From a virus (Duplodnaviria > Caudoviricetes): a stretch of DNA of 39,281 nt. This document shows, piece after piece, positions 23,985 through 33,879 of the stretch. Each line of letters opens with the position of its first letter. Positions within the stretch are counted from its first letter, which is position 1. The position numbers were made by a program, and so were the translations under genes. The notes beneath the pieces were generated by a model. That model was not told where the DNA came from and did not search any database. It was given only the letters and a program-made list of their open reading frames with translations. The stretch lies in the IMG/VR virus record IMGVR_UViG_3300034091_000183, positions 1-39,281 of that record; one strand, written 5' to 3'.

Positions 23985-24164
23985 ATGCGCGGCCCCCTGG
24001 AAATCACCCTTGAAAAGCTGCGTGACGAGCATCGTGTCCCGCTCGGGATCCTCTCGTTCGATATGGAGAAAGAGGAGATCTTCCTGACGCTGTTCCCCGG
24101 GTTGAGCACCGAGGAAGTCAACGCGCTACTTATCAAGATCGGCATCAAAGGAATCTTTGAATGA
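23985..24164 (+). CDS. Small hypothetical protein (59 aa)
   Basis: MRGPLEITLEKLRDEHRVPLGILSFD...GIFE*; ATGA overlap with the first glycosyltransferase. Confidence 0.5.
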   Translation: MRGPLEITLEKLRDEHRVPLGILSFDMEKEEIFLTLFPGLSTEEVNALLIKIGIKGIFE

Positions 24165-26053
24165 ACATCGTGATCATTACGAACTGGAACGGAATAGGAC
24201 TTCAGAGAGACGGGGAACTGCTTCACGACTTCTTGCTCGAGCAAGGCCACCAGGTGATCAGGTATCAGTGGGACGAACCGATAACGCAACCGATCACCGG
24301 CAACAAGCTTCCGAACGATCTCGCGATCTTCCTCGAAGTTGTGCCGCGGGAGTTTCTGAAAATCGCGCCGGTGCGCTGGGCGTTCCTCAATCCCGAATGG
24401 ATGACGCCGGATCGCGTGCAGACGGTCTCGCTCGGAATCGACAAGATCTTTGCGAAGACGCGCGAGGCCGAACGGATCTTCTCACCGCTATTTCCCGGCC
24501 GCGTGAAGTACACCGGTTTCCTCACGCGTGATCAGTGTCTGCCGGAGATCGAACGCAAGCCCTGGTTCTTGCACATCGGCGGAAACAGTTCCCTGCGTGG
24601 AACGCAAACAGTCGTCGACGCGTGGAAGTGGACGTATGAAGGAAAGCGCCTGGACCGTCATCTGATCGTTGTGAGCACAGCTCTGCAGGATCGTCCTGAG
24701 ATCCCGATGGTCACGTATCACGAAAAGCTGAGTGAGGAAGAGTTGAAGTCTTACCAGAACGAATGCATGTTCCATATCTATCCGAGTGGCACCGAAGGAT
24801 GGGGCCACGCGATTCACGAAGCGCAAAGTTGTGGCGCAGTTCTTCTAGTCACTGGCCAGCCGCCAATGAACGAGATCCCGCACATCTACCCGATCTTCGG
24901 GAAGAAGGCGTCCAAGTACAATCTCGCGGACGTTTACGAGGTGAGCGCGATTGACATCTTCGACAGAGTGACAACGTGCAGTGAGATCTATCGAGTGCGG
25001 CCGGAACAGGAATGGAAAGAAGAGCAGCGCCAGATCCGCGCGCACTTCCTCACCGCCAACGAGGAGTTCAAGAAAATTTTCAACGACGAGCTAAACTTTG
25101 GAGTCAAGATAGCGTCGGTAAAGAAATTCGTGCGGCCGGTGAGAACCGGCGACAAAAAGATCGTGGCGTTCCTCGGAAACTTCGCTTCGCCGGAGAGCAC
25201 CGAGAACATGATCAAGTGGGGACTCGAGGAGCTCGGCCACCAGGTTATCGAGATCCAGGAGAACGAAGCAACTGTCGATTGGCTCGAAGAGACGTTTAAC
25301 TATGCGGACGTTTTTTTCTGGGTGAAGACGCCCGGGTTCCTGAAGGTGAATGACGGACGCATGCAGAGGATCCTCGACAGTGCGTTGATTCCAACAGCAT
25401 CGATCCATCTCGACAAGTTCTGGGGAATCCCTGAGCGCGAACCGGCCATAGGCAAGACGCCGTTCTGGAAGACAGACTTCGTATTCACGGCCGACGGTTC
25501 ACAACCCGAAAAATTTATTTCGCGCGGTGTGAACCATTTCTGGATGAAGCCAGCGGTGAGCCAGGTGTACTGCCACCCGGGAGTTCCTCGCGCACATTTT
25601 CTCTGTGACGTCGGCTTCGTCGGCGCTCGCGAGTACCACCGAGAATATCCGTTCCGCGCCGATCTCGTCGAGTTCCTCGAGAAGACCTACGGAGACCGCT
25701 TCAAGCTGATCCAGGGAGTGCGCGGCCACGATCTCAACGACTTCTATGCCTCGTGCAAGGTTGCCGTCGGGGACTGCATCTTTGCCGGGACTCCGAACTA
25801 CTGGTCAGATCGCGTGCCGGAGACCTGCGGCCGGTGGGGATTCCTGCTCCATCCCGACGTCGCCGGGCTGGACATTCCGGTGGCCAAGTACACCGCGCAG
25901 AACCTCGAGAACTTGCGCGCCCAGATCGAATACTGGCTCAGTCACGACGATCACCGGCTGCGCGTTCGCACTGTGGCCACGTTCGAGACGTTGCAGAACA
26001 ACACCTGGGCGACACGATTGCGCTGGATCTTGGAGACAATGGGAAAGAAGTGA
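24161..26053 (+). CDS. Two-domain GT-B glycosyltransferase (GT4-like plus CgeB/Glyco_trans_1_2-like)
   Basis: YPSGTEGWGHAIHEAQSCGA (GT4-type ExxxxxxxEA) and DVGFVG...DLNDFYASCK...YWSDRVPETCGRWGFLL...NNTWATR. Confidence 0.85.
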   Translation: MNIVIITNWNGIGLQRDGELLHDFLLEQGHQVIRYQWDEPITQPITGNKLPNDLAIFLEVVPREFLKIAPVRWAFLNPEWMTPDRVQTVSLGIDKIFAKTREAERIFSPLFPGRVKYTGFLTRDQCLPEIERKPWFLHIGGNSSLRGTQTVVDAWKWTYEGKRLDRHLIVVSTALQDRPEIPMVTYHEKLSEEELKSYQNECMFHIYPSGTEGWGHAIHEAQSCGAVLLVTGQPPMNEIPHIYPIFGKKASKYNLADVYEVSAIDIFDRVTTCSEIYRVRPEQEWKEEQRQIRAHFLTANEEFKKIFNDELNFGVKIASVKKFVRPVRTGDKKIVAFLGNFASPESTENMIKWGLEELGHQVIEIQENEATVDWLEETFNYADVFFWVKTPGFLKVNDGRMQRILDSALIPTASIHLDKFWGIPEREPAIGKTPFWKTDFVFTADGSQPEKFISRGVNHFWMKPAVSQVYCHPGVPRAHFLCDVGFVGAREYHREYPFRADLVEFLEKTYGDRFKLIQGVRGHDLNDFYASCKVAVGDCIFAGTPNYWSDRVPETCGRWGFLLHPDVAGLDIPVAKYTAQNLENLRAQIEYWLSHDDHRLRVRTVATFETLQNNTWATRLRWILETMGKK

Positions 26054-26055
26054 AT

Positions 26056-26071
26056 TGTTCCACGTGAAACA
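26056..26071. promoter_or_regulatory. parS: parS site (ParB/Spo0J binding)
   Basis: TGTTCCACGTGAAACA, an exact match to the bacterial parS consensus TGTTNCACGTGAAACA; intergenic. Confidence 0.85.
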
Positions 26072-26095
26072 TACAAGGTCCCAGTACTCATTACC

Positions 26096-26169
26096 GACAC
26101 TTCGGGACCTAAAAAAGAACCTGAAGTGTCGGGACACTTCGGGACCTAAAAAAGAACCTGAAGTGTCGG
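26096..26169. repeat. Perfect tandem duplication of a 37-bp internally palindromic unit
   Basis: GACACTTCGGGACCTAAAAAAGAACCTGAAGTGTCGG at 26096-26132 and 26133-26169; arms GACACTTC/GAAGTGTC. Confidence 0.9.
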
Positions 26170-26192
26170 AGAACGTAAAGGGGGGTGTTTAA

Positions 26193-27089
26193 GTGAGCTT
26201 TGACCAAACGAAGATCGACGTGATCTGGCACTCGCAGGAGGACGGCCGCGGCCGGTACAACTGCACGACCATGCTGAACGACGTATTTGACCGCTACAAC
26301 TGCGTGCATCACGCCGGGCGGAAATATATGCCGAAAGGCATCGAGGGAGGGGTAGTGATCGTTCACGGCGGCCGCCAGATGGGCGAGATCGACAGGGTGA
26401 ACATGGACCTCGATGAACTAAAATGGGCGCTGGTGATCTTCCTGGGCGACGAGGAGTGCAGTTTTCCCATTGAGAAGGTCGAGGTGCCGGAAAACCGCAT
26501 CACGTGGATCCAGGAGCCCATGGTGCCGGGAAAGCACGCCACGATCCCCCACCGGCCGATCCTGGACGGTTATACGCCGCACTGCCGCAATTTCGCGGTG
26601 CCACAGACGCCCAAGGACCTCGATTGGTTCTTCGCTGGCCAGGTGACGCACGAGAGGCGGCGCGAGTGTGTCGCAGCGTTGCAGTCGATTGACTGGGGCG
26701 GCGTGATCATCGAGACGAAGGGTTACTGCCAGGGGATCCCCGAGCAGGCGTACTTTCAAATGATGAACCGTGCGCGCCTGGTGCCGTGTCCGTCTGGTCC
26801 GTTGTCGCCGGATGCCGCGCGTCCCTGGGAAGCGCTCGAGTGCGGCGCGATTCCGATCCTCGATGATCTCTCGCCGGTGCGGAAGAAAGGTGGCTTCTGG
26901 GCTCACGTACTCGGCGATCATCCGATGCCCTGGGTCACCAGGTGGGAGAGCTTGCCGGATCTGATCGACACGCTAAAGAAAACCGGGAACCTGGACATGA
27001 TCCAGAAAGAGTGTTTGACCTGGTGGGCCGACTATAAATTCAAATTCGCGAAAGCGCTCGGTGACGATCTGAAAAAACTGCGAGGCTGA
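26193..27089 (+). CDS. Exostosin/GT47-like glycosyltransferase
   Basis: KDLDWFFAGQ...YFQMMNRARLVPCPSG...RPWEALECGAIPI. Confidence 0.75.
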   Translation: MSFDQTKIDVIWHSQEDGRGRYNCTTMLNDVFDRYNCVHHAGRKYMPKGIEGGVVIVHGGRQMGEIDRVNMDLDELKWALVIFLGDEECSFPIEKVEVPENRITWIQEPMVPGKHATIPHRPILDGYTPHCRNFAVPQTPKDLDWFFAGQVTHERRRECVAALQSIDWGGVIIETKGYCQGIPEQAYFQMMNRARLVPCPSGPLSPDAARPWEALECGAIPILDDLSPVRKKGGFWAHVLGDHPMPWVTRWESLPDLIDTLKKTGNLDMIQKECLTWWADYKFKFAKALGDDLKKLRG

Positions 27090-27091
27090 AC

Positions 27092-27817
27092 GTGGAAACC
27101 GAAATCACCGTGCTCGTTTCGTCGTCTCCGATCCCGAGCCATCCGTCTCTCGCGATCATCCAGGAAACGCTCGACAGCATCCGCTACCATTTGCCCGACG
27201 CGAAGATCATCATCATGCTCGACGGCGTGCGCGAGGAGCAGAAAGATCGCGAGAAGGCCTACCACCAGCACATCATGCAGCTCGCGACGAAGTTGCTGGC
27301 GTCGAAGGACCGGCAGGTCAGGCTCTACCCGTTCAACGATTTCACGCACCAGGCGTGGATGACGATGAAGACACTCGAGACAATCTACTCGCCGCTGATT
27401 CTATTTGTGGAGCACGACACGCCGCTGGTCGACAAGCCCATTGACTGGCCGCTGCTGAAGCGAATGATCCGCGAGGGTTACACGAACCACATCCGCTTGC
27501 ATTACGACGAGCAGATCCATCCCGAGCACCAGCACCTCATGCGCGGAAAGCTGACGGAGAACTTGATCAAGACCGTGCAGTGGCACCAGCGGCCGCATCT
27601 GGCGCACGCTACCTGGTACGAGCAGATCCTCGCGAACAACTTCACCGAGAAGTCGCGCACCTGGATCGAAGACAAAGTATATTCGCCGGTGACTTGCGCG
27701 CCGTGGGAGGAGTACAAGCTCACGGTGTATGATCCAGAAGGCACGGGCCAGAATATGAAGCGCTCGCGAGATCTTAACGGCCGCGCGGGAGACAAGAAGT
27801 ACGATCCACAATTCTGA
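27092..27817 (+). CDS. GT-A fold glycosyltransferase (EHD motif)
   Basis: ITVLVSSSPIPSHPS...IIIMLDGV...PLILFVEHD. Confidence 0.7.
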   Translation: METEITVLVSSSPIPSHPSLAIIQETLDSIRYHLPDAKIIIMLDGVREEQKDREKAYHQHIMQLATKLLASKDRQVRLYPFNDFTHQAWMTMKTLETIYSPLILFVEHDTPLVDKPIDWPLLKRMIREGYTNHIRLHYDEQIHPEHQHLMRGKLTENLIKTVQWHQRPHLAHATWYEQILANNFTEKSRTWIEDKVYSPVTCAPWEEYKLTVYDPEGTGQNMKRSRDLNGRAGDKKYDPQF

Positions 27818-28542
27818 TGACTCCAGACGAAGCGATCACGATTGTCACCACCGTCTGCGCGATCCCCTCGCAGCCGAGCACGTGGATCATCGACAAAGTC
27901 TACGCGAGCGCCAGGCACTATCTGCCGCAGGCGCGCTGGCTCTTTCTCTTCGACGGCGTCCACCAGATCCAGGAAGACATGCGGCCGGGCTACGAGGAGT
28001 ACAAGAAGATCCTGAAAGAACGGATCAACACCAGCGAGTGGAACAACTCGGAGTACATGGAGTTCGAGGAATGGGGCCACCAGGCCAGCATGATCCGCGA
28101 AGCGGTTCGCCGCAGTCGCATCGGTACACCGCTGATCCTTTTTCTCGAGCACGACTTCGCGTTCAACTATCTGCCGATTGATTTCCAGGGAATCGTCAAC
28201 AGCCTGCTCGAGAGAGAGATGTGCTACGTGCGGTTCGCACTGCCGGAAGAAACTCGCGAGAGCATCAAGAACTTGAACGTACCGCGGACGAGCCGGTTCA
28301 TCCCGGTGATGGAAACGAAAAACTATTCTTCGCTTCCGCACGTCTGCACGCTCGAGTTCATGCAGCGGTTAGTGCTCGAGTTCATCCACGGCCGGGACCA
28401 CATCGAATGCCTGGTGACCGAAGGGATCGCGTTCAAGGAACCGCAGTGGCGGCTGTCGCTGTACGTTCCCGAAGGACATCTGGATCGCGTCTATTCGCTC
28501 GACGGACGCCAAGGACGAAAAAAACCGGAGGTGACGTTTTGA
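27817..28542 (+). CDS. GT-A fold glycosyltransferase, paralogue of the previous gene
   Basis: ITIVTTVCAIPSQPS...LFLFDGV...PLILFLEHD...LDGR; also 241 aa. Confidence 0.7.
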   Translation: MTPDEAITIVTTVCAIPSQPSTWIIDKVYASARHYLPQARWLFLFDGVHQIQEDMRPGYEEYKKILKERINTSEWNNSEYMEFEEWGHQASMIREAVRRSRIGTPLILFLEHDFAFNYLPIDFQGIVNSLLEREMCYVRFALPEETRESIKNLNVPRTSRFIPVMETKNYSSLPHVCTLEFMQRLVLEFIHGRDHIECLVTEGIAFKEPQWRLSLYVPEGHLDRVYSLDGRQGRKKPEVTF

Positions 28543-29327
28543 TTCTGATCACTGGGGGAACAGGATTCATCGGTTCGCACTTCATGCAAATCGCGAGAAG
28601 TAGACACGAAGAGGTTGCGAATCTTGGTCGAGAGACCTGGGATTTCCGAGAGCCGCAGCCGCCTTACCTGGCGAGCTGGACGTCGCCGAAAATTTTCATC
28701 CACTTCGGTGCGAACGTGAAAGCGCGCCAGAGCGTCGATAACCCATGGCCTTTTGTTCAGGACAATATTCTCGGCACGTACAATGTGCTGGAACTCGCGC
28801 GCCGTTTGCATCCCAGCCTTTTCGTGTTCATCTCCTCGGCCGAAGCGCTCGGCGGATGCGACAAAGGCTACCTGGGTCTCGAGTCGCCGATGAAGCCATC
28901 GAATCCTTACGCGGCGACGAAAGCGGCCGGAGAGCTACTGACCTACACCTACTACCGCTCGTATCGATTGCCAGCGATCATCGTGCGGACGCAGTGCGTG
29001 TGGGACATACTCCAGAAAGATCCAACAAAAGCGGTGCCGATCATCAGGGACACGATCATGGCCGGTAAGCCGGTGAAGATCTATCACAGGCGCGGCCGGA
29101 TCGGTTCGCGCCAGTGGATTCACGTCGACGAGTTCTGCAACCGGCTTCTGAATCTTCTGCCGAAGGCCATCCCAGGCGAGACCTACCACATCGTCGGCGA
29201 GGAGTTGACCAATTTACAGTTGGCCGAACTTGTCGCCAAACAACTGGATATGCCGCTACTCACCGAACCAGAAGAGATCTCGCCGACTCACGAACTTCGT
29301 TACGCGTTGACGGGGACAAAAGAATGA
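28539..29327 (+). CDS. NAD-dependent epimerase/dehydratase (RmlB-like extended SDR)
   Basis: TTG start with GGAGG SD (TTGA overlap); ITGGTGFIG, NILGTYNVLE, PSNPYAATK. Confidence 0.85.
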   Translation: MILITGGTGFIGSHFMQIARSRHEEVANLGRETWDFREPQPPYLASWTSPKIFIHFGANVKARQSVDNPWPFVQDNILGTYNVLELARRLHPSLFVFISSAEALGGCDKGYLGLESPMKPSNPYAATKAAGELLTYTYYRSYRLPAIIVRTQCVWDILQKDPTKAVPIIRDTIMAGKPVKIYHRRGRIGSRQWIHVDEFCNRLLNLLPKAIPGETYHIVGEELTNLQLAELVAKQLDMPLLTEPEEISPTHELRYALTGTKE

Positions 29328-30079
29328 CGCCAGAAGAGATCAGAGATCGCGATTGTGTGTGGGCCGAAGTGGCCGCGAGATTTCCGCAGTTCACCCACGC
29401 GCATGATCCGGCCGACAACTATCACGCGGTGCGGGAGATCGTGCTGAGTGGTTCGGTGACCTGGGCTGCGGCTAACGGCTATTTCAAACCGTGGCCGGGA
29501 AAGTGGGTCCTGGACATCGGCGCGAACGCTGGGATCTATTCGGCATTCTGCGCGATTCACGGTGCCAGGGTGGTGGCGTACGAACCGTTCCAGCAGGTCT
29601 ATTCTCTGCTGGTGAAAATGGTCGACGAGATCCCGAACGGAGATCTGATCACGCCGATCAACGCCGCGGTGTGGACCTTCACTGGAAACATTCCGTACAT
29701 CGGCCACAAGGTGATCAACACCGACGTTACCTGCTACAACGGCGGCGTGCCGACAAACGGAGTGCGCTGGACCGACGATGATTTTAACAACGCCGTGGAA
29801 GTGCGCTGCGTTTCTCTCGACGATGCCATCGGCGACCGGACCTGGGACTGCGTGAAGATCGACATCGAAGGCGCGGAGTACGAAATGCTCCTCGCCGCTT
29901 CACCGGAAAAATTGAAGCAGATCAAATTCTGCTATCTCGAGTTCCACCATTGGACCGGATCTGATCCGAGTCTGTACGCCAGGACCATCGAAAAACTCGA
30001 AAGCATTTTCAAGTGCAGCTATTACCTGGCCCGTGGATCGGAAGGTCCGTACGAAGCCGCGTACCTGTGGAGAAAGTGA
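29324..30079 (+). CDS. FkbM-family SAM-dependent methyltransferase
   Basis: ATGA overlap; VLDIGANAG, VVAYEP, KIDIEGAE. Confidence 0.9.
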   Translation: MTPEEIRDRDCVWAEVAARFPQFTHAHDPADNYHAVREIVLSGSVTWAAANGYFKPWPGKWVLDIGANAGIYSAFCAIHGARVVAYEPFQQVYSLLVKMVDEIPNGDLITPINAAVWTFTGNIPYIGHKVINTDVTCYNGGVPTNGVRWTDDDFNNAVEVRCVSLDDAIGDRTWDCVKIDIEGAEYEMLLAASPEKLKQIKFCYLEFHHWTGSDPSLYARTIEKLESIFKCSYYLARGSEGPYEAAYLWRK

Positions 30080-31050
30080 TGAGCGAGCACTTGCTGAAAG
30101 AGATCTGTGTGGTCACGACCTACAAGCGGCCGGAGCATCTGCGCTGCTGTCTGAAGCGCATTCGCCTGGCAGATCCGCTGATGCCTATCTTGGTGTTTCC
30201 TGATCGCGGCACCTGGAAAGATCCCGAGCTGCTCCTGGCGGTCAATGGAATGGGTCTCTGCGAAGTGAACTTCGTGCCGGATCACGACTACATCGGCAAC
30301 ACGTACAACGCCATGGAAGCGTTTCGCACGGTGTACAACGAAGGCTGGCCGGTGATCTATTACGTCGAAGACGACGTGATGGTTCACCAGGATTTCTTTA
30401 GCTGGCACCGGCAGATCAACGAGGATTGTCCAGAGCTGTTCGCATCGATGGCCTGGGTCTTCAACCGCTACGCGCCGCTCGTCGACGACGTGATGTTCCA
30501 GCCCTGGTATTACGCCGTGGGGACCTGCTTCAAACGCGAGAAGCTCGAGCTCGTCGTCCAGCACGCTTCGCCGCGGTACTACGCGAACATGCAGAAGTAC
30601 ATCGAGGAAAATTTCAAGGGCAGCAAGTTGAACCAGCCTGCGGCCATCGCGCACTACGAGCAGGACGGACTGATCCAGCGCGTTCTCGATCTGGACCGCA
30701 CGCAGACCGCTTCGCCGGGAATCACCAAGTGTTCGCACTTGGGCTTCTACGGATACAACCGCGGGTGGCAATCGAGTCCAGACATCTTCGAGGGCATCGA
30801 AAATTTTGAGGAGCGCGTGGAACGTCTCGAAGAGTTCATCGCCGATCCGGTCTGGCGCGCCAGCATCTTCACGCGCGAAGTTGTCGAGCGGGAGATCGGC
30901 CACAAGATCCCGAAGCGCATCTTCAACTACCGCGTGCAGGTCGGCAAGTTCGAGAGCACCTTCACGAGCGAACTCGACAGGAAGCGACTTCCCAAGCGCA
31001 TCAACTCAGTGACTTTGCCGCCCGAGGCGATCATCGAAAAAATCAGTTGA
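30079..31050 (+). CDS. GT-A (GT2-like) glycosyltransferase
   Basis: VVTTYKRPEHLRCCL...LVFPD...YYVEDD...CSHLG. Confidence 0.75.
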   Translation: MSEHLLKEICVVTTYKRPEHLRCCLKRIRLADPLMPILVFPDRGTWKDPELLLAVNGMGLCEVNFVPDHDYIGNTYNAMEAFRTVYNEGWPVIYYVEDDVMVHQDFFSWHRQINEDCPELFASMAWVFNRYAPLVDDVMFQPWYYAVGTCFKREKLELVVQHASPRYYANMQKYIEENFKGSKLNQPAAIAHYEQDGLIQRVLDLDRTQTASPGITKCSHLGFYGYNRGWQSSPDIFEGIENFEERVERLEEFIADPVWRASIFTREVVEREIGHKIPKRIFNYRVQVGKFESTFTSELDRKRLPKRINSVTLPPEAIIEKIS

Positions 31051-31076
31051 CGAAGAGGTAGATAAACCCCTATTTT
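31047..31076 (+). promoter_or_regulatory. Candidate sigma70 promoter of the ncRNA array
   Basis: TTGACG (31047-31052), 18-bp spacer, TATTTT (31071-31076); predicted start falls near the first RNA stem at 31081. Confidence 0.5.
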
Positions 31077-31080
31077 TCGA

Positions 31081-31212
31081 TTGATCTCGATACTGCTTCG
31101 GCTTTACATGTAGCTCATTGGTAGAGCATCTGATTCGTAATCAGAATGTGGTGGGTTCGACTCCCATCATGTGTCACCCCGCAAGGGGAGCCGATACGAC
31201 GCTCGAGATCAA
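31081..31212 (+). ncRNA. Y-RNA-like RNA 1 (carries a whole tRNA)
   Basis: TTGATCTCGA/TCGAGATCAA closing stem; TACTG/CGACGC loop; TCGGCT/AGCCGA stem; CCCC-GCAA-GGGG hairpin. Confidence 0.75.
31104..31175 (+). tRNA. tRNA-Thr(CGT)-like cloverleaf embedded in RNA 1
   Basis: D arm GCTC-ATTGGTA-GAGC; anticodon arm TCTGA-TTCGTAA-TCAGA; T arm GTGGG-TTCGACT-CCCAT; acceptor TACATG/CATGTG with weak end and no encoded CCA. Confidence 0.8.
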
Positions 31213-31216
31213 AAGT

Positions 31217-31393
31217 TTGGCTGCTACTGAAAGTGATTTCAAGACCCGGATCCATTGGGGGGCTCGCGAGTAATCGTTGGCCACCTTCCCGCGCAGCGGG
31301 GGACTCCGGGGGCCGCTGCCGACGAATGATCCTCGCCGCTCACATCGTAAGGTGTGAGGCACCCAAAACAAATCACCTTCGACGCGCGGCCAA
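31217..31393 (+). ncRNA. Y-RNA-like RNA 2 (multi-hairpin cargo)
   Basis: TTGGCTGC/GCGGCCAA; TACTG/CGACGC; GTGATTT/AAATCAC; internal hairpins GCAGCGG/CCGCTGC and CTCACATC-GTAA-GGTGTGAG. Confidence 0.75.
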
Positions 31394-31399
31394 TTGAAG

Positions 31400-31553
31400 C
31401 TGGCCCTTACCGCAAGTGGATACATGCGAATGGCCGAAAGGCCTTTCATCTAGGTTCGAGTCCTAGGTCCCCCCCCCAACTACGGGGGACTAGCCTAACT
31501 GGAAAAGGCACATGATTTCCGAAAGGGAATCTCCACACGCAACGCAGGGCCAG
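31400..31553 (+). ncRNA. Y-RNA-like RNA 3, YrlA-type circularly permuted tRNA mimic
   Basis: CTGGCCCT/AGGGCCAG; TACCG/CAACGC; GTGGA/TCCAC. T arm CTAGG-TTCGAGT-CCTAG precedes a loop-closed acceptor stem GTCCCCC/GGGGGAC and then a D arm GCCT-AACTGGAAA-AGGC. Confidence 0.8.
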
Positions 31554-31561
31554 GTGAAAAA

Positions 31562-31636
31562 GGCCTTTACTGAACTCGAGTACATGACACTTTGAATGCC
31601 ATGGAGGGAAACCTCCCTCGAGATCGACGCAAGGCC
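31562..31636 (+). ncRNA. Y-RNA-like RNA 4 (minimal; anticodon-like stem-loop)
   Basis: GGCCTT/AAGGCC; TACTG/CGACGC; CTCGAG/CTCGAG; CATGACA-CTTTGAA-TGCCATG; GAGG-GAAA-CCTC. Confidence 0.7.
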
Positions 31637-31697
31637 CCTAGACATTTTTTCCTTAACTGATGGAAAAAATGTGCGGCGCACGTTAAAACGTCCAAGG

Positions 31698-31735
31698 GGC
31701 CGGGAGAGAAGATCCTCCCGGCCCTCTTTTTTTTT
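31698..31735 (+). terminator. Rho-independent terminator closing the ncRNA array
   Basis: GGCCGGGAG-agaagatc-CTCCCGGCC stem followed by a 9-T tract. Confidence 0.85.
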
Positions 31736-31745
31736 GGAGGATCGC

Positions 31746-32375
31746 ATGGCTGCTGGAGACCGTTTCTACCTGTTGGAGTTCAAGCACCGCCACGCATTCT
31801 GGGGCGATGTCGGATCGAACCTGCGGATCAACGGGATCTGCGTCGGCGGCGCGGACGTCAGCGCGCTGCTGCTGCTGCCAACGCTGCGCGACGATTATCT
31901 GAAGCACAACATCGTGGTGCTCGAGCCCACGGTTCAGGAGTGGTCGGACTTCATCCGCTACAGCGACGATCCGCAGATCTACGTCCAGGAGGGCGAAGGC
32001 AAGGTCTTCCACCGGAAGATGCGCTACGCAATCTCTGGCGAGATCCAACAGAAGATCTGGGCGGCCGACAATTTCGCCTGCGTCTACTGCGGCGCAAAGA
32101 TGGGACAAACACTGATGACCGTCGATCATCTTGTCCCGCTCGAGCAAGGCGGAAAGAACGATCACACGAATTTCCTGACGGCGTGCAGGCGCTGCAACAA
32201 ACGGAAAGGCAGCGGAGATCCGCTAATCTTCCTCGAACAGGTCCACCGCTGGCTCGGGAGCCCGGCGGAAAAGTTCGAGACCCTCAAGAAGTACATCGTC
32301 GACAGGAACAAAGTGTGCTTCCCTGAAGAAGCATTGGAGAAAGGAAAGGTGAGTCATGGCGGAAACGGGGCTTAG
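31746..32375 (+). CDS. HNH endonuclease (McrA/HNH_5-like) with N-terminal extension
   Basis: ATG 31746 with GGAGG SD; CVYCG...TVDHLVPLEQGG.N...NFLTACRRCNKRKG. Confidence 0.85.
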   Translation: MAAGDRFYLLEFKHRHAFWGDVGSNLRINGICVGGADVSALLLLPTLRDDYLKHNIVVLEPTVQEWSDFIRYSDDPQIYVQEGEGKVFHRKMRYAISGEIQQKIWAADNFACVYCGAKMGQTLMTVDHLVPLEQGGKNDHTNFLTACRRCNKRKGSGDPLIFLEQVHRWLGSPAEKFETLKKYIVDRNKVCFPEEALEKGKVSHGGNGA

Positions 32376-33879
32376 TAGGAACCAGATCTTTGTGGAGCTC
32401 GCGAAGAGCGAACATGGAGATCTCAAACAGTACGTGCCGGTGGGTTACGCGGCCGCGCGCGAACATCCAGATTTCCTGGCGCACTTGCTGGTGTGGAACA
32501 AGGACAAGGGCCAGGTGCGTGACACGAAAGCCGCGTTGCCGGTGATCGCGCTCATGAACCAGAACCTCGACGAAGAGTTTGTCGAGAACGCGCTCGCGTG
32601 CCTCACGCTTCTGAATCCGCGCGACATGCTGAAGGCTTACCGGTTCGTGCTCGAGACCCGGCCGATGAACCGCATGACCATGATCAAGCGGACACTCGTC
32701 GCCAGGTTCCACCTCCAGGAGAAGAACTGGCCGAAGTGGGAACGCACCATGCTGCAGCATCGCGAGACGCTCCGCGAACTCTTCGCGCTGCTCAGTTATC
32801 CGCCGGTGGACAAGCGTACTGACGCGTGCCTGTTCCGCCGGAAGGGCCAGGAGAAGCTCGCGTATCCGCCTGGTGGGCTCTTCGAGCTCGTCGCCGGGCT
32901 CAAGAACATGTCGCCGAAGGAAGCGGCGGGAATGATCCTCACCTACAAGCTGCCGTTCTTGCCGGTGACCGGCGCGCTCGGCGACAAGGCGAAGGATCCC
33001 GACGTGGTCCTGGCGATGATCAAGAGCATGACCGCGACGGAGCTCGTCACCAGCATGAAGAAGCTCGAGCGCCTGGGCGTGAAAACGAATCCGGCGCTTC
33101 GCGGCGCGCTCGAGGAAGCGCTCGGCAAATCCGCCAGCAGCACCGCGAACGTGCTGAAGGCCACTACCGCGGCCGAGAACATCGGCGACGAAGATCTCGC
33201 CGCGGATCTCAACAAGCTGCAGGCCAAGCAGACGAAGAAGTTCTCGAACGTCGACGGCAACTGGGCGGTGCTCGGTGATCGCTCGCCGAGTATGTCCAGG
33301 GCTGTCCAGATCGCCAAGGAAGTCGCCGCGGTTCTGACTTCAATGGTGAAGGGCAAGGTGCATCTGGTCTTCTTCGATTCGCTCCCGCAGGTGATCGACG
33401 TGACCGGCTGCGATCTGAGCATGATCAAGAAAGCAACCAGGCACATCGAGGCCGGTGGAAGCGGGACCTCCATCGGATGCGGCTTGAAATCGCTCCAGGA
33501 GCGCAAGTACGTGGTCGACGGGATCGCCATTGTTTCTGACGGCGGCCACAACACCGCGCCGTCGTTTCCTGACGTCTACAAGAGCTACTCGAAGCTGGTC
33601 GACAAGGAAGTGCCGGTGTACTTGTTCCTCACCGAGGGCGACGATCCGAGGAAGTTGACCGATCCGATGGAAGCGGCAGGCATCGACATGCACATTTTTG
33701 ATTTACGGAGAGTGAAACTCGACGCCTATTCAATTCCCAATCTTGTTCAGACCATGAGAACGAACAGGTACTCGCTTGTCGATGAGATAATGGAGACCAA
33801 ACTCCTCAAGCTATCGGATGAGTACAAAGGAAAGCGATGCGAACGCACGGCGAGAGCAAGTGGACGGGCGACACAGTAG
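32356..33879 (+). CDS. TROVE + vWA domain protein (Ro60/Rsr-like RNA-binding protein)
   Basis: About 290-aa helical N-terminal region followed by vWA MIDAS motifs (VLGDRSPSM, GGSGTS, IAIVSDG); size and layout of Ro60 orthologues; adjacent to a YrlA-like RNA. Confidence 0.75.
   Translation: MAETGLSRNQIFVELAKSEHGDLKQYVPVGYAAAREHPDFLAHLLVWNKDKGQVRDTKAALPVIALMNQNLDEEFVENALACLTLLNPRDMLKAYRFVLETRPMNRMTMIKRTLVARFHLQEKNWPKWERTMLQHRETLRELFALLSYPPVDKRTDACLFRRKGQEKLAYPPGGLFELVAGLKNMSPKEAAGMILTYKLPFLPVTGALGDKAKDPDVVLAMIKSMTATELVTSMKKLERLGVKTNPALRGALEEALGKSASSTANVLKATTAAENIGDEDLAADLNKLQAKQTKKFSNVDGNWAVLGDRSPSMSRAVQIAKEVAAVLTSMVKGKVHLVFFDSLPQVIDVTGCDLSMIKKATRHIEAGGSGTSIGCGLKSLQERKYVVDGIAIVSDGGHNTAPSFPDVYKSYSKLVDKEVPVYLFLTEGDDPRKLTDPMEAAGIDMHIFDLRRVKLDAYSIPNLVQTMRTNRYSLVDEIMETKLLKLSDEYKGKRCERTARASGRATQ

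What the first reader, a model, noticed from the sequence alone, without database searches (positions are those of the whole stretch)
31217..31393. RNA 2 carries a non-tRNA cargo with a possible long-range pseudoknot
Inside the handle are TTGGG/CCCAA, a GCGA-GTAA-TCGT hairpin, GCAGCGG/CCGCTGC, and CTCACATC-GTAA-GGTGTGAG. The single strand CCCGGA (31245-31250) is complementary to TCCGGG (31305-31310) in the apical loop and can extend via TCC/GGA. The segments AAGACCCGG, GGACTCCGGG and GACGAATGAT loosely echo the P4 and J18/2-P2 conserved sequences of bacterial RNase P RNA in permuted order. That resemblance is speculative and alternative folds exist.
Basis: partly seen in the sequence, partly recalled or inferred. 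Interest (0 to 1): 0.7.

Follow-up and report, generated by a model that had tools for sequence, protein, structure and literature searches.

The report
Knotted cargo on phage Y-like RNA
A peat phage carries a row of small RNA cassettes beside a gene predicted to encode a Ro60-type RNA-binding ring, and this cassette holds a conserved RNA knot, not a piece of RNase P, shaped like the nuclease-blocking knots of animal and plant viruses, so it likely serves to resist or stall a host RNA-degrading enzyme.

Summary
The pairing is real; the RNase P idea is not supported. RNA 2 (31217-31393) is one of four handle-closed cassettes upstream of an HNH gene and a protein predicted to fold like Ro60. This scan has noted such arrays before on other DNA; I found no note of this cargo.

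Seven distinct versions of the cargo were found in 111 Ro60-like clusters. Nine of 12 tested pairs change on both sides; 0 of 500 shuffles reached the covariation score. TTGGG/CCCAA is not supported. RNase P's invariant motifs (28 of 28 host RNAs) are absent from all seven.

The strand between the pseudoknot halves is 13-15 nt in 7 of 7, close to the 15-16-nt ring of exoribonuclease-resistant RNAs (xrRNAs). A close relative lacks the whole cassette.

Best reading: an exchangeable Y-RNA effector module folded as an xrRNA-like ring that resists or stalls a host exonuclease (confidence 0.4). Fold topology is supported by covariation; ring, Ro60 binding, expression and function are inferred.

The parts
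31047..31076 (+). sigma70-like promoter candidate (TTGACG-18-TATTTT), weak
   Evidence: 1 found, 0.4 expected in shuffles
31086..31207 (+). RNA 1: handle cassette with tRNA-Thr(CGT)-like cargo (31104-31175)
31217..31393 (+). RNA 2: whole cassette (the finding)
31217..31239 (+). RNA 2 handle, 5' strand: outer stem, ACTG (31226-29), inner stem; followed by TTCAAG, a variant of the usual TACA(T/C)G
31245..31250 (+). P1 5' strand CCCGGA (pairs 31305-10); followed by TCCA, whose CC is kept in 7 of 7 members
31258..31286 (+). inserted hairpin with bulged A (contains GCGA-GTAA-TCGT); only in the window and L047 versions, making a three-way junction
31287..31303 (+). P2 (TCCC 31287-90 / GGGA 31300-03) closing a loop of GC plus the pseudoknot strand GCAGCGG (31293-99)
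31305..31319 (+). P1 3' strand TCCGGG, 2-nt link, pseudoknot partner CCGCTGC (31313-19)
31320..31360 (+). two 3' hairpins (31320-38 weak, 31339-58) followed by GC
31370..31393 (+). RNA 2 handle, 3' strand: inner stem, CGAC (31380-83), outer stem
31401..31552 (+). RNA 3: handle cassette with permuted tRNA-like, YrlA-like cargo
   Evidence: YrlA 24.3 bits, E 0.013, far below the gathering score of 69
31562..31636 (+). RNA 4: short handle cassette
31696..31735 (+). intrinsic terminator candidate
   Evidence: 1 found, 1.0 expected in shuffles
31746..32375 (+). HNH-domain protein, a frequent neighbour of the arrays
32356..33879 (+). 507-aa helical-repeat plus vWA protein predicted to have the Ro60 fold
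   Evidence: 11 best listed Foldseek hits plus rank 13 are Ro60/Rsr structures, best E 3.7e-10, TM 0.57, 15% identity; no TROVE Pfam hit

Best explanation
RNA 2 is an exchangeable cassette in a phage array of Y-RNA-like genes: a shared handle, likely bound by the neighbouring protein predicted to be a Ro60 ring, carries a conserved pseudoknot that likely folds into a ring around its own 5' strand and so would resist or stall a host exoribonuclease. Shown: array, handle, three covarying helices, 13-15-nt spacing, gain or loss of the whole cassette. Inferred: transcription and cutting into units; Ro60 binding to the handle; that the 3' strand of the 9-12 bp of P1+P2 wraps about one turn and is latched by the 7-bp pseudoknot; that the target is a host nuclease (RNase J from the 5' side, or PNPase brought in by Ro60). 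The tRNA-shaped cassettes would present other host RNA shapes on the same carrier.
For: Covariation of P2 and the pseudoknot on a MAFFT alignment of 7 members: 91.7% of 84 cells paired, 9 of 12 pairs with changes on both sides, 0 of 500 shuffles reach the score, slid partners give 31-63%. P1 also varies while pairing. Three-helix descriptor reached by 1 of 300 shuffles for the window and 0 of 300 for each of 6 others. Strand between pseudoknot halves 13-15 nt in 7 of 7 although the descriptor allowed about 9-21; xrRNA rings have 15-16 nt (PMC8374639, passages). An apical loop pairing with a downstream strand builds the ring in both flavivirus and dianthovirus xrRNAs, and these block RNase J1 (10.1101/262683, passages). 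Short members match the stem-internal loop-stem outline of dianthovirus xrRNA, window and L047 the three-way junction outline with a hairpin after the pseudoknot (PMC7749634, passages). Y RNAs are a Ro60-binding module plus an effector module (10.1101/312249, passages); phage phiLo Ro60 with its Y-like RNAs dampens host PNPase (PMC12135203, passages). 4 of 7 cellular-collection loci lie in Acidobacteria bins and 4 of 4 such genomes carry TIGR00649 above cut-off (that this family is RNase J is recalled). Modularity: a close relative joins RNA 1 to RNA 3, another has different letters in this slot; the cargo needs 6 changes on a 74-row tree and is not clustered (74 of 500 shuffles).
Against: No sequence likeness to any Rfam family, xrRNA models included if held, at E<=10. 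A stem-loop whose loop pairs downstream is a common topology: a relaxed descriptor fits 18 of 29 tmRNAs, and unanchored descriptors hit rRNA by chance. The knot sits inside a handle that pairs the 5' end, so a 5'-to-3' nuclease would first have to eat the handle; the cassette is not consistently first in its array. Nested energy models prefer a non-knotted fold for window and L047. A model built from four short members does not find the window or L047 versions, so their kinship rests on the one-way search and the descriptor. The Ro60-binding motif of known Y RNAs is not at the 5' end. No 3D model of the RNA could be made.
Confidence: 0.4

Rival explanations
1. Same handle and same pseudoknot, but the cargo is a shape decoy or tether for another host RNA-binding protein (for example an RNA-targeting defence nuclease or an S1-domain protein), with no nuclease-blocking ring.
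For: 177 of 259 handle units are tRNA-like by a rough pattern, which fits a panel of baits; few unpaired bases are conserved (CC 7 of 7, loop GC 6 of 7); patchy distribution.
Against: No host RNA to be mimicked was found: no match in E. coli 16S/23S/5S or partial acidobacterial rRNA, and only coding-region chance hits in 141 Acidobacteria genomes.
Confidence: 0.3
2. The cargo mimics a tmRNA pseudoknot (pk2-pk4 type) and binds what these bind, alongside cassettes that resemble the tRNA-like end of tmRNA.
For: E. coli tmRNA has an element of the same strand order with GGA-AGCC...GGTT, like the short members' GGAAGCCC...GGGCTT; weak permuted-tmRNA hit on a neighbouring cassette (E 1.6).
Against: Spacing 16-25 nt in 18 tmRNA elements against 13-15 here; no nhmmer or covariance-model hit inside 29 tmRNAs; strict descriptor fits 4 of 30 entries.
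Confidence: 0.12
3. The cargo is a small-molecule aptamer that soaks up a host signal or metabolite.
For: Compact knot with conserved junction bases (CC, GGA in 5 of 7, GC), as riboswitch pockets have (general knowledge).
Against: The GGA part is replaced by a hairpin in 2 of 7 members; no riboswitch hit.
Confidence: 0.07
4. The cargo is a self-cleaving or trans-acting ribozyme that processes the array.
For: Nested pseudoknot outline; 7-bp helix starting with G in 7 of 7.
Against: Present in only 7 of 111 clusters, so not needed for processing; strand order does not map on HDV, twister, pistol or hatchet (recalled folds); no Rfam hit.
Confidence: 0.05
5. One reading: a circularly permuted, minimal RNase P RNA.
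For: Order of the three echoing segments is circularly compatible; GACGAATGATC matches one acidobacterial RNase P over 11 nt.
Against: Invariant P4-region motifs absent in 7 of 7; GAATG in 2 of 7 and inside a variable hairpin; score reached by 28 of 200 shuffles; P1 sequence varies freely across members (AAGGG, GGTCT, GTCGC).
Confidence: 0.01

Closest known systems
Bacterial and phage Y RNAs with Ro60/Rsr (YrlA, Rfam RF02553; YrlB; Yrn1; phiLo Yrl1/Yrl2). PMC4201824, PMC12135203, 10.1101/312249: passages read
   Same: Small RNA genes upstream of a Ro60-fold gene on the same strand; ends paired into a stem-bulge-stem handle; variable effector module; sister cassette RNA 3 scores weakly as YrlA.
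   Different: Handle motif is ACTG...TACA(T/C)G...CGAC rather than a 5' GNCGAAN0-1G; arrays of up to 7 detected units; protein has 12-15% identity to solved Ro60s and no TROVE Pfam hit; RNA 2's module is a pseudoknot, not a tRNA shape. I found no pseudoknotted Y RNA module.
Exoribonuclease-resistant RNAs (flavivirus class 1; dianthovirus). PMC8374639, PMC7749634, 10.1101/262683: passages read
   Same: Apical loop pairs with a strand just downstream of the basal stem; about 15 nt between; three-way junction form and simple internal-loop form both occur; hairpin directly after the pseudoknot.
   Different: No sequence likeness; 7-bp pseudoknot; no evidence for the 5'-end/junction pairing or base triple; embedded in a closed handle rather than in a 3' UTR; resistance untested. 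No phage xrRNA appeared in the 12 listed papers.
tmRNA pseudoknots pk2-pk4 (RF00023)
   Same: Same strand order: interrupted hairpin whose loop pairs downstream.
   Different: Longer linkers (6-13 nt against 1-5), no profile match.
Bacterial RNase P RNA type A (RF00010)
   Same: A CCCGG/CCGGG helix in two of seven members.
   Different: All invariant core motifs and the P2, P3, P5, P15 framework are missing.

Membership tests
Bacterial Y RNA (YrlA type) | Ro60 orthologue within 4 kb on the same strand | tested here: met
   Gene starts 963 nt downstream; Ro60 fold by prediction only; no sequence-level hit to TROVE or PDB Ro60
Bacterial Y RNA (YrlA type) | 5' and 3' ends paired in a stem with a conserved bulge | tested here: met
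   8-bp outer and 7-bp inner stems, pair probability 0.92-0.95; same handle in 259 units
Bacterial Y RNA (YrlA type) | GNCGAAN0-1G motif near the 5' end | tested here: not met
   Only an internal match at 31321-28, found in 139 of 1000 shuffles and 0 of 6 homologues
Bacterial Y RNA (YrlA type) | tRNA-like effector module | tested here: not met
   No tRNA or YrlA hit on RNA 2; met by RNA 1 and weakly RNA 3
Bacterial Y RNA (YrlA type) | Bound and stabilised by Ro60 | not testable with these tools
   needs binding assay
xrRNA | Apical loop pairs with downstream strand | tested here: met
xrRNA | Ring of 15-16 nt around the 5' strand | tested here: inconclusive
   13-15 nt between the pseudoknot strands, 15-17 with the closing pair; threading needs a 3D structure
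xrRNA | 5'-end pairing with the junction and base triple (flavivirus class 1) | not tested
   no covarying candidate looked for systematically; junction between P2 and P1 3' strands is 0-2 nt
xrRNA | Blocks 5'-to-3' exoribonucleases | not testable with these tools
   needs enzyme assay
RNase P RNA | GAGGAAAGUC block with the P4 bulged U | tested here: not met
   28 of 28 host RNAs, 0 of 7 members
RNase P RNA | ACARAAYYCGGCUUA block | tested here: not met
   23 of 28 host RNAs, 0 of 7 members
RNase P RNA | J18/2 GAAUG followed by a P2 strand with a partner | tested here: not met
   GAATG in 2 of 7, no conserved partner
tmRNA (incl. permuted) | tRNA-like domain and tag reading frame | tested here: not met
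   ARAGORN and Rfam find none in the window

The most novel reading that the evidence does not exclude
Phages of soil and peat bacteria evolved their own exoribonuclease-resistant ring RNA and mount it on a Ro60-carried handle as a trap for host RNA-decay enzymes: a prokaryotic counterpart of flavivirus xrRNA, occurring in both the three-way-junction and the simple stem-loop form, inside a swappable library of Y-like RNAs.
Probability: 0.27. Interest if true: 0.85.

Novelty: new variant of a known kind. Interest (0 to 1): 0.63.

Why it matters
Known Y RNA effector modules are tRNA mimics or plain hairpins, and the effector that binds YrlA is unknown (10.1101/312249). A covariation-backed pseudoknot on the same carrier as tRNA mimics shows that the effector slot accepts unrelated folds and can be swapped between close phages, which makes the tether model directly testable with one protein and several natural cargos. 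If the knot blocks RNase J or PNPase it would extend ring-type nuclease resistance from eukaryotic viruses to phages and give a compact (about 50 nt in the short members) RNA stabiliser for bacteria.

Tried and rejected
Rfam: no hit on RNA 2, L047 or L093 cargos at E<=10 beyond two minus-strand CRISPR-repeat chance hits. RNase P, rRNA and tmRNA comparisons: negative; a descriptor hit in E. coli 23S at 774 does not follow the accepted pairing there (recalled) and is taken as background. I first read the competing hairpin CCCGC-GCA-GCGGG as a conserved switch (119 of 500 shuffles); the wider family shows it is a shifted view of P2, so the switch was dropped. Pattern scans of viral contigs gave no member beyond those already held (10 hits, none with a handle; 41: 2 hits, L047 and one coding; 49: 121 loci, 3 real units of known arrays; 56: 3 hits, L047 only; 99: 14 hits, 3 copies of L050). 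Whole-record searches of 50 phage records with both models gave no new member. Four weak hits in 141 Acidobacteria genomes look coding and lack the handle. No match in cultured-phage records. L106 (E 0.055) starts like the family but lacks the rest and was left out. L016:3290 passes the descriptor but is a tRNA-acceptor-type cassette and was left out, as were 4 hits outside handle arrays. No RNA holder listed, so expression is open. No RNA 3D prediction tool was available. The tree is the quick version only.

Full report
Context. The window is a 39-kb virus record held in peat metagenomes (the two best holders may be its source). Between a glycosyl-transferase cluster and an HNH gene lies a non-coding stretch with four cassettes, a weak promoter candidate and a terminator candidate. 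The 507-aa gene behind the HNH gene has 699 relatives, no TROVE or PDB sequence hit, but its AlphaFold model (pLDDT 84.6) matches Ro60/Rsr structures best (E 3.7e-10 to phage phiLo Ro60).

The array. Loci of relatives (70 viral, 80 metagenome, 7 cellular) collapse to 111 protein clusters; 67 of the 83 with at least 1.5 kb upstream have two or more handle units; of 259 units 177 are tRNA-like, 52 short and 30 other by a rough pattern (the pattern was tuned by eye and misses some units). The handle is outer stem, ACTG, inner stem, TACA(T/C)G, cargo, inner stem, CGAC, outer stem. Earlier notes of this scan describe such arrays on other DNA. RNA 2 has an intact handle with TTCAAG in place of TACATG. 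A close relative joins RNA 1 directly to RNA 3 (one contig, depth 8) and another carries other letters in the slot, so the cassette is gained or lost whole.

The observation. All motifs are where stated. The crossing pair of helices alone is seen in 25 of 1000 shuffles. Nested folding gives CCCGGA/TCCGGG probability 0.99 but GCAGCGG/CCGCTGC and TTGGG/CCCAA 0.00. The P1+P2 scaffold is -64.2 and the 7-bp duplex -12.6 kcal/mol against -75.6 for the nested optimum, so energy alone does not decide.

Homologues. A sequence-only search ranked L047 first (E 0.025); it keeps both helices with 4 of 13 pairs changed on both sides (36 of 500 shuffles, weak with two rows). A model from these two found L093 at 32.5 bits, E 2.3e-7, next hit 15.3 bits. 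L093 belongs to a shorter class I had already seen by eye in unit lists (L050, L127, L014). A sequence-blind three-helix descriptor over 2449 motif starts returned 11 distinct hits: six members (window, L047, L050, L093, L101, L127), one tRNA-acceptor cassette and four outside arrays; L014 was missed for a variant handle and added by hand. Shuffles reach the members' scores in 1 of 300 (window) and 0 of 300 (others) (pairing in that table is by construction, the variation is not). On a MAFFT alignment of the seven cores, whose limits I chose, 91.7% of 84 cells pair, 9 of 12 pairs change on both sides, 0 of 500 shuffles reach the covariation score, and slid partners fall to 31-63%; L101 is one column off and supplies most misses. 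Against this, the reciprocal model from four short members does not recover the window or L047, probably because of their 23-36-nt insertion. The seven are scattered on the Ro60 tree (6 changes, 74 of 500 shuffles as low; quick tree), L093 and L101 being sisters.

Corrected fold. P1 (5-6 bp), junction beginning with a conserved CC (7 of 7) and either a short A/G-rich strand or an inserted hairpin, P2 (4-6 bp), loop GC (6 of 7) plus a 7-nt strand that starts with G and pairs with a strand 1-5 nt behind P1, then one or two hairpins and usually GC. The strand between the pseudoknot halves is 13-15 nt in 7 of 7 and P1+P2 total 9-12 bp. The GC after the hairpins could pair with the loop GC to close a four-way junction; it never varies, so this is unsupported.

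What it is not. RNase P core motifs are invariant in 28 host RNAs and absent from all seven; alignment scores are at chance; no Rfam family matches; no rRNA, tmRNA or host copy was found. tmRNA pseudoknots share the strand order but have 16-25 nt between the halves (18 of 29).

How it likely works. Y RNAs join a Ro60-binding stem to an effector module (10.1101/312249, passages; PMC4201824, passages), and phage phiLo Ro60 with Y-like RNAs dampens PNPase (PMC12135203, passages). In xrRNAs an apical loop pairs downstream so that 15-16 nt encircle the 5' strand, and these block RNase J1 as well as Xrn1 (PMC8374639, PMC7749634, 10.1101/262683, passages). The fixed short spacing after about one helical turn is what such a ring would need, and likely hosts (4 of 7 cellular loci in Acidobacteria bins) carry the RNase J family (name recalled). 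I therefore commit to a nuclease-resistant ring presented on Ro60 (0.4), ahead of a decoy for another protein (0.3), tmRNA-pseudoknot mimicry (0.12), aptamer (0.07), ribozyme (0.05) and RNase P (0.01). The main weakness is that the handle shields the 5' end and that this topology is common.

Novelty. Phage Ro60 with tRNA-like partners is known (PMC7824862, passage; PMC4201824). Searches (listings only, except the papers named) showed no pseudoknotted Y RNA module, no phage xrRNA and no permuted phage RNase P. Supplements were not read; those of PMC4201824 list phage Y RNAs and may bear on the array. It works like a Y RNA but fails two YrlA membership features, so I file it as a new variant.

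Noticed in passing
window 31086-31207; L012, L032, L013, L056 and others: The cassette whose cargo starts with a D arm carries a different anticodon-like loop in each phage (CGT here), so ARAGORN calls it a tRNA of varying identity; its acceptor stem is imperfect.
   Followed up: partly
L162:2770, L010:3275, L012:3277, L040:3149: Cassettes with CCCCCTCCACCA...GGGGGG, resembling an alanine/tmRNA-type acceptor end held internally.
   Followed up: no
L093:165-181: The hairpin after the pseudoknot is CCGG-CTCATAC-CCGG, like an anticodon arm with CAT, so knot and tRNA piece can share one cassette.
   Followed up: no
window 31746-32375: HNH protein with a conserved N-terminal region lies next to or inside many arrays (hits in 66 of 157 loci at E<=1e-8, some to unrelated HNH genes); possible effector of the Ro60 complex.
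   Followed up: partly
window 31642-31672: Perfect 11-bp A/T-rich hairpin between RNA 4 and the terminator candidate.
   Followed up: no
window 31213-31216 and 31404-31414: Units often start with AAG plus a short stem; Dictyostelium Class I RNAs also start with AAG and have a short stem and an 11-nt motif (PMC7919456, passages).
   Followed up: partly
L106:158-330: A handle start and P1-like strand followed by a G/T-rich insertion and no matching handle end: possibly a decayed member.
   Followed up: partly
window 24161-31050: Phage cluster of glycosyltransferases, an epimerase and an FkbM methyltransferase directly upstream of the array.
   Followed up: no
L305 (LR756511.1, 595-kb phage): A 26%-identical relative of the Ro60-like protein in a huge phage, without an obvious handle array next to it.
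   Followed up: partly
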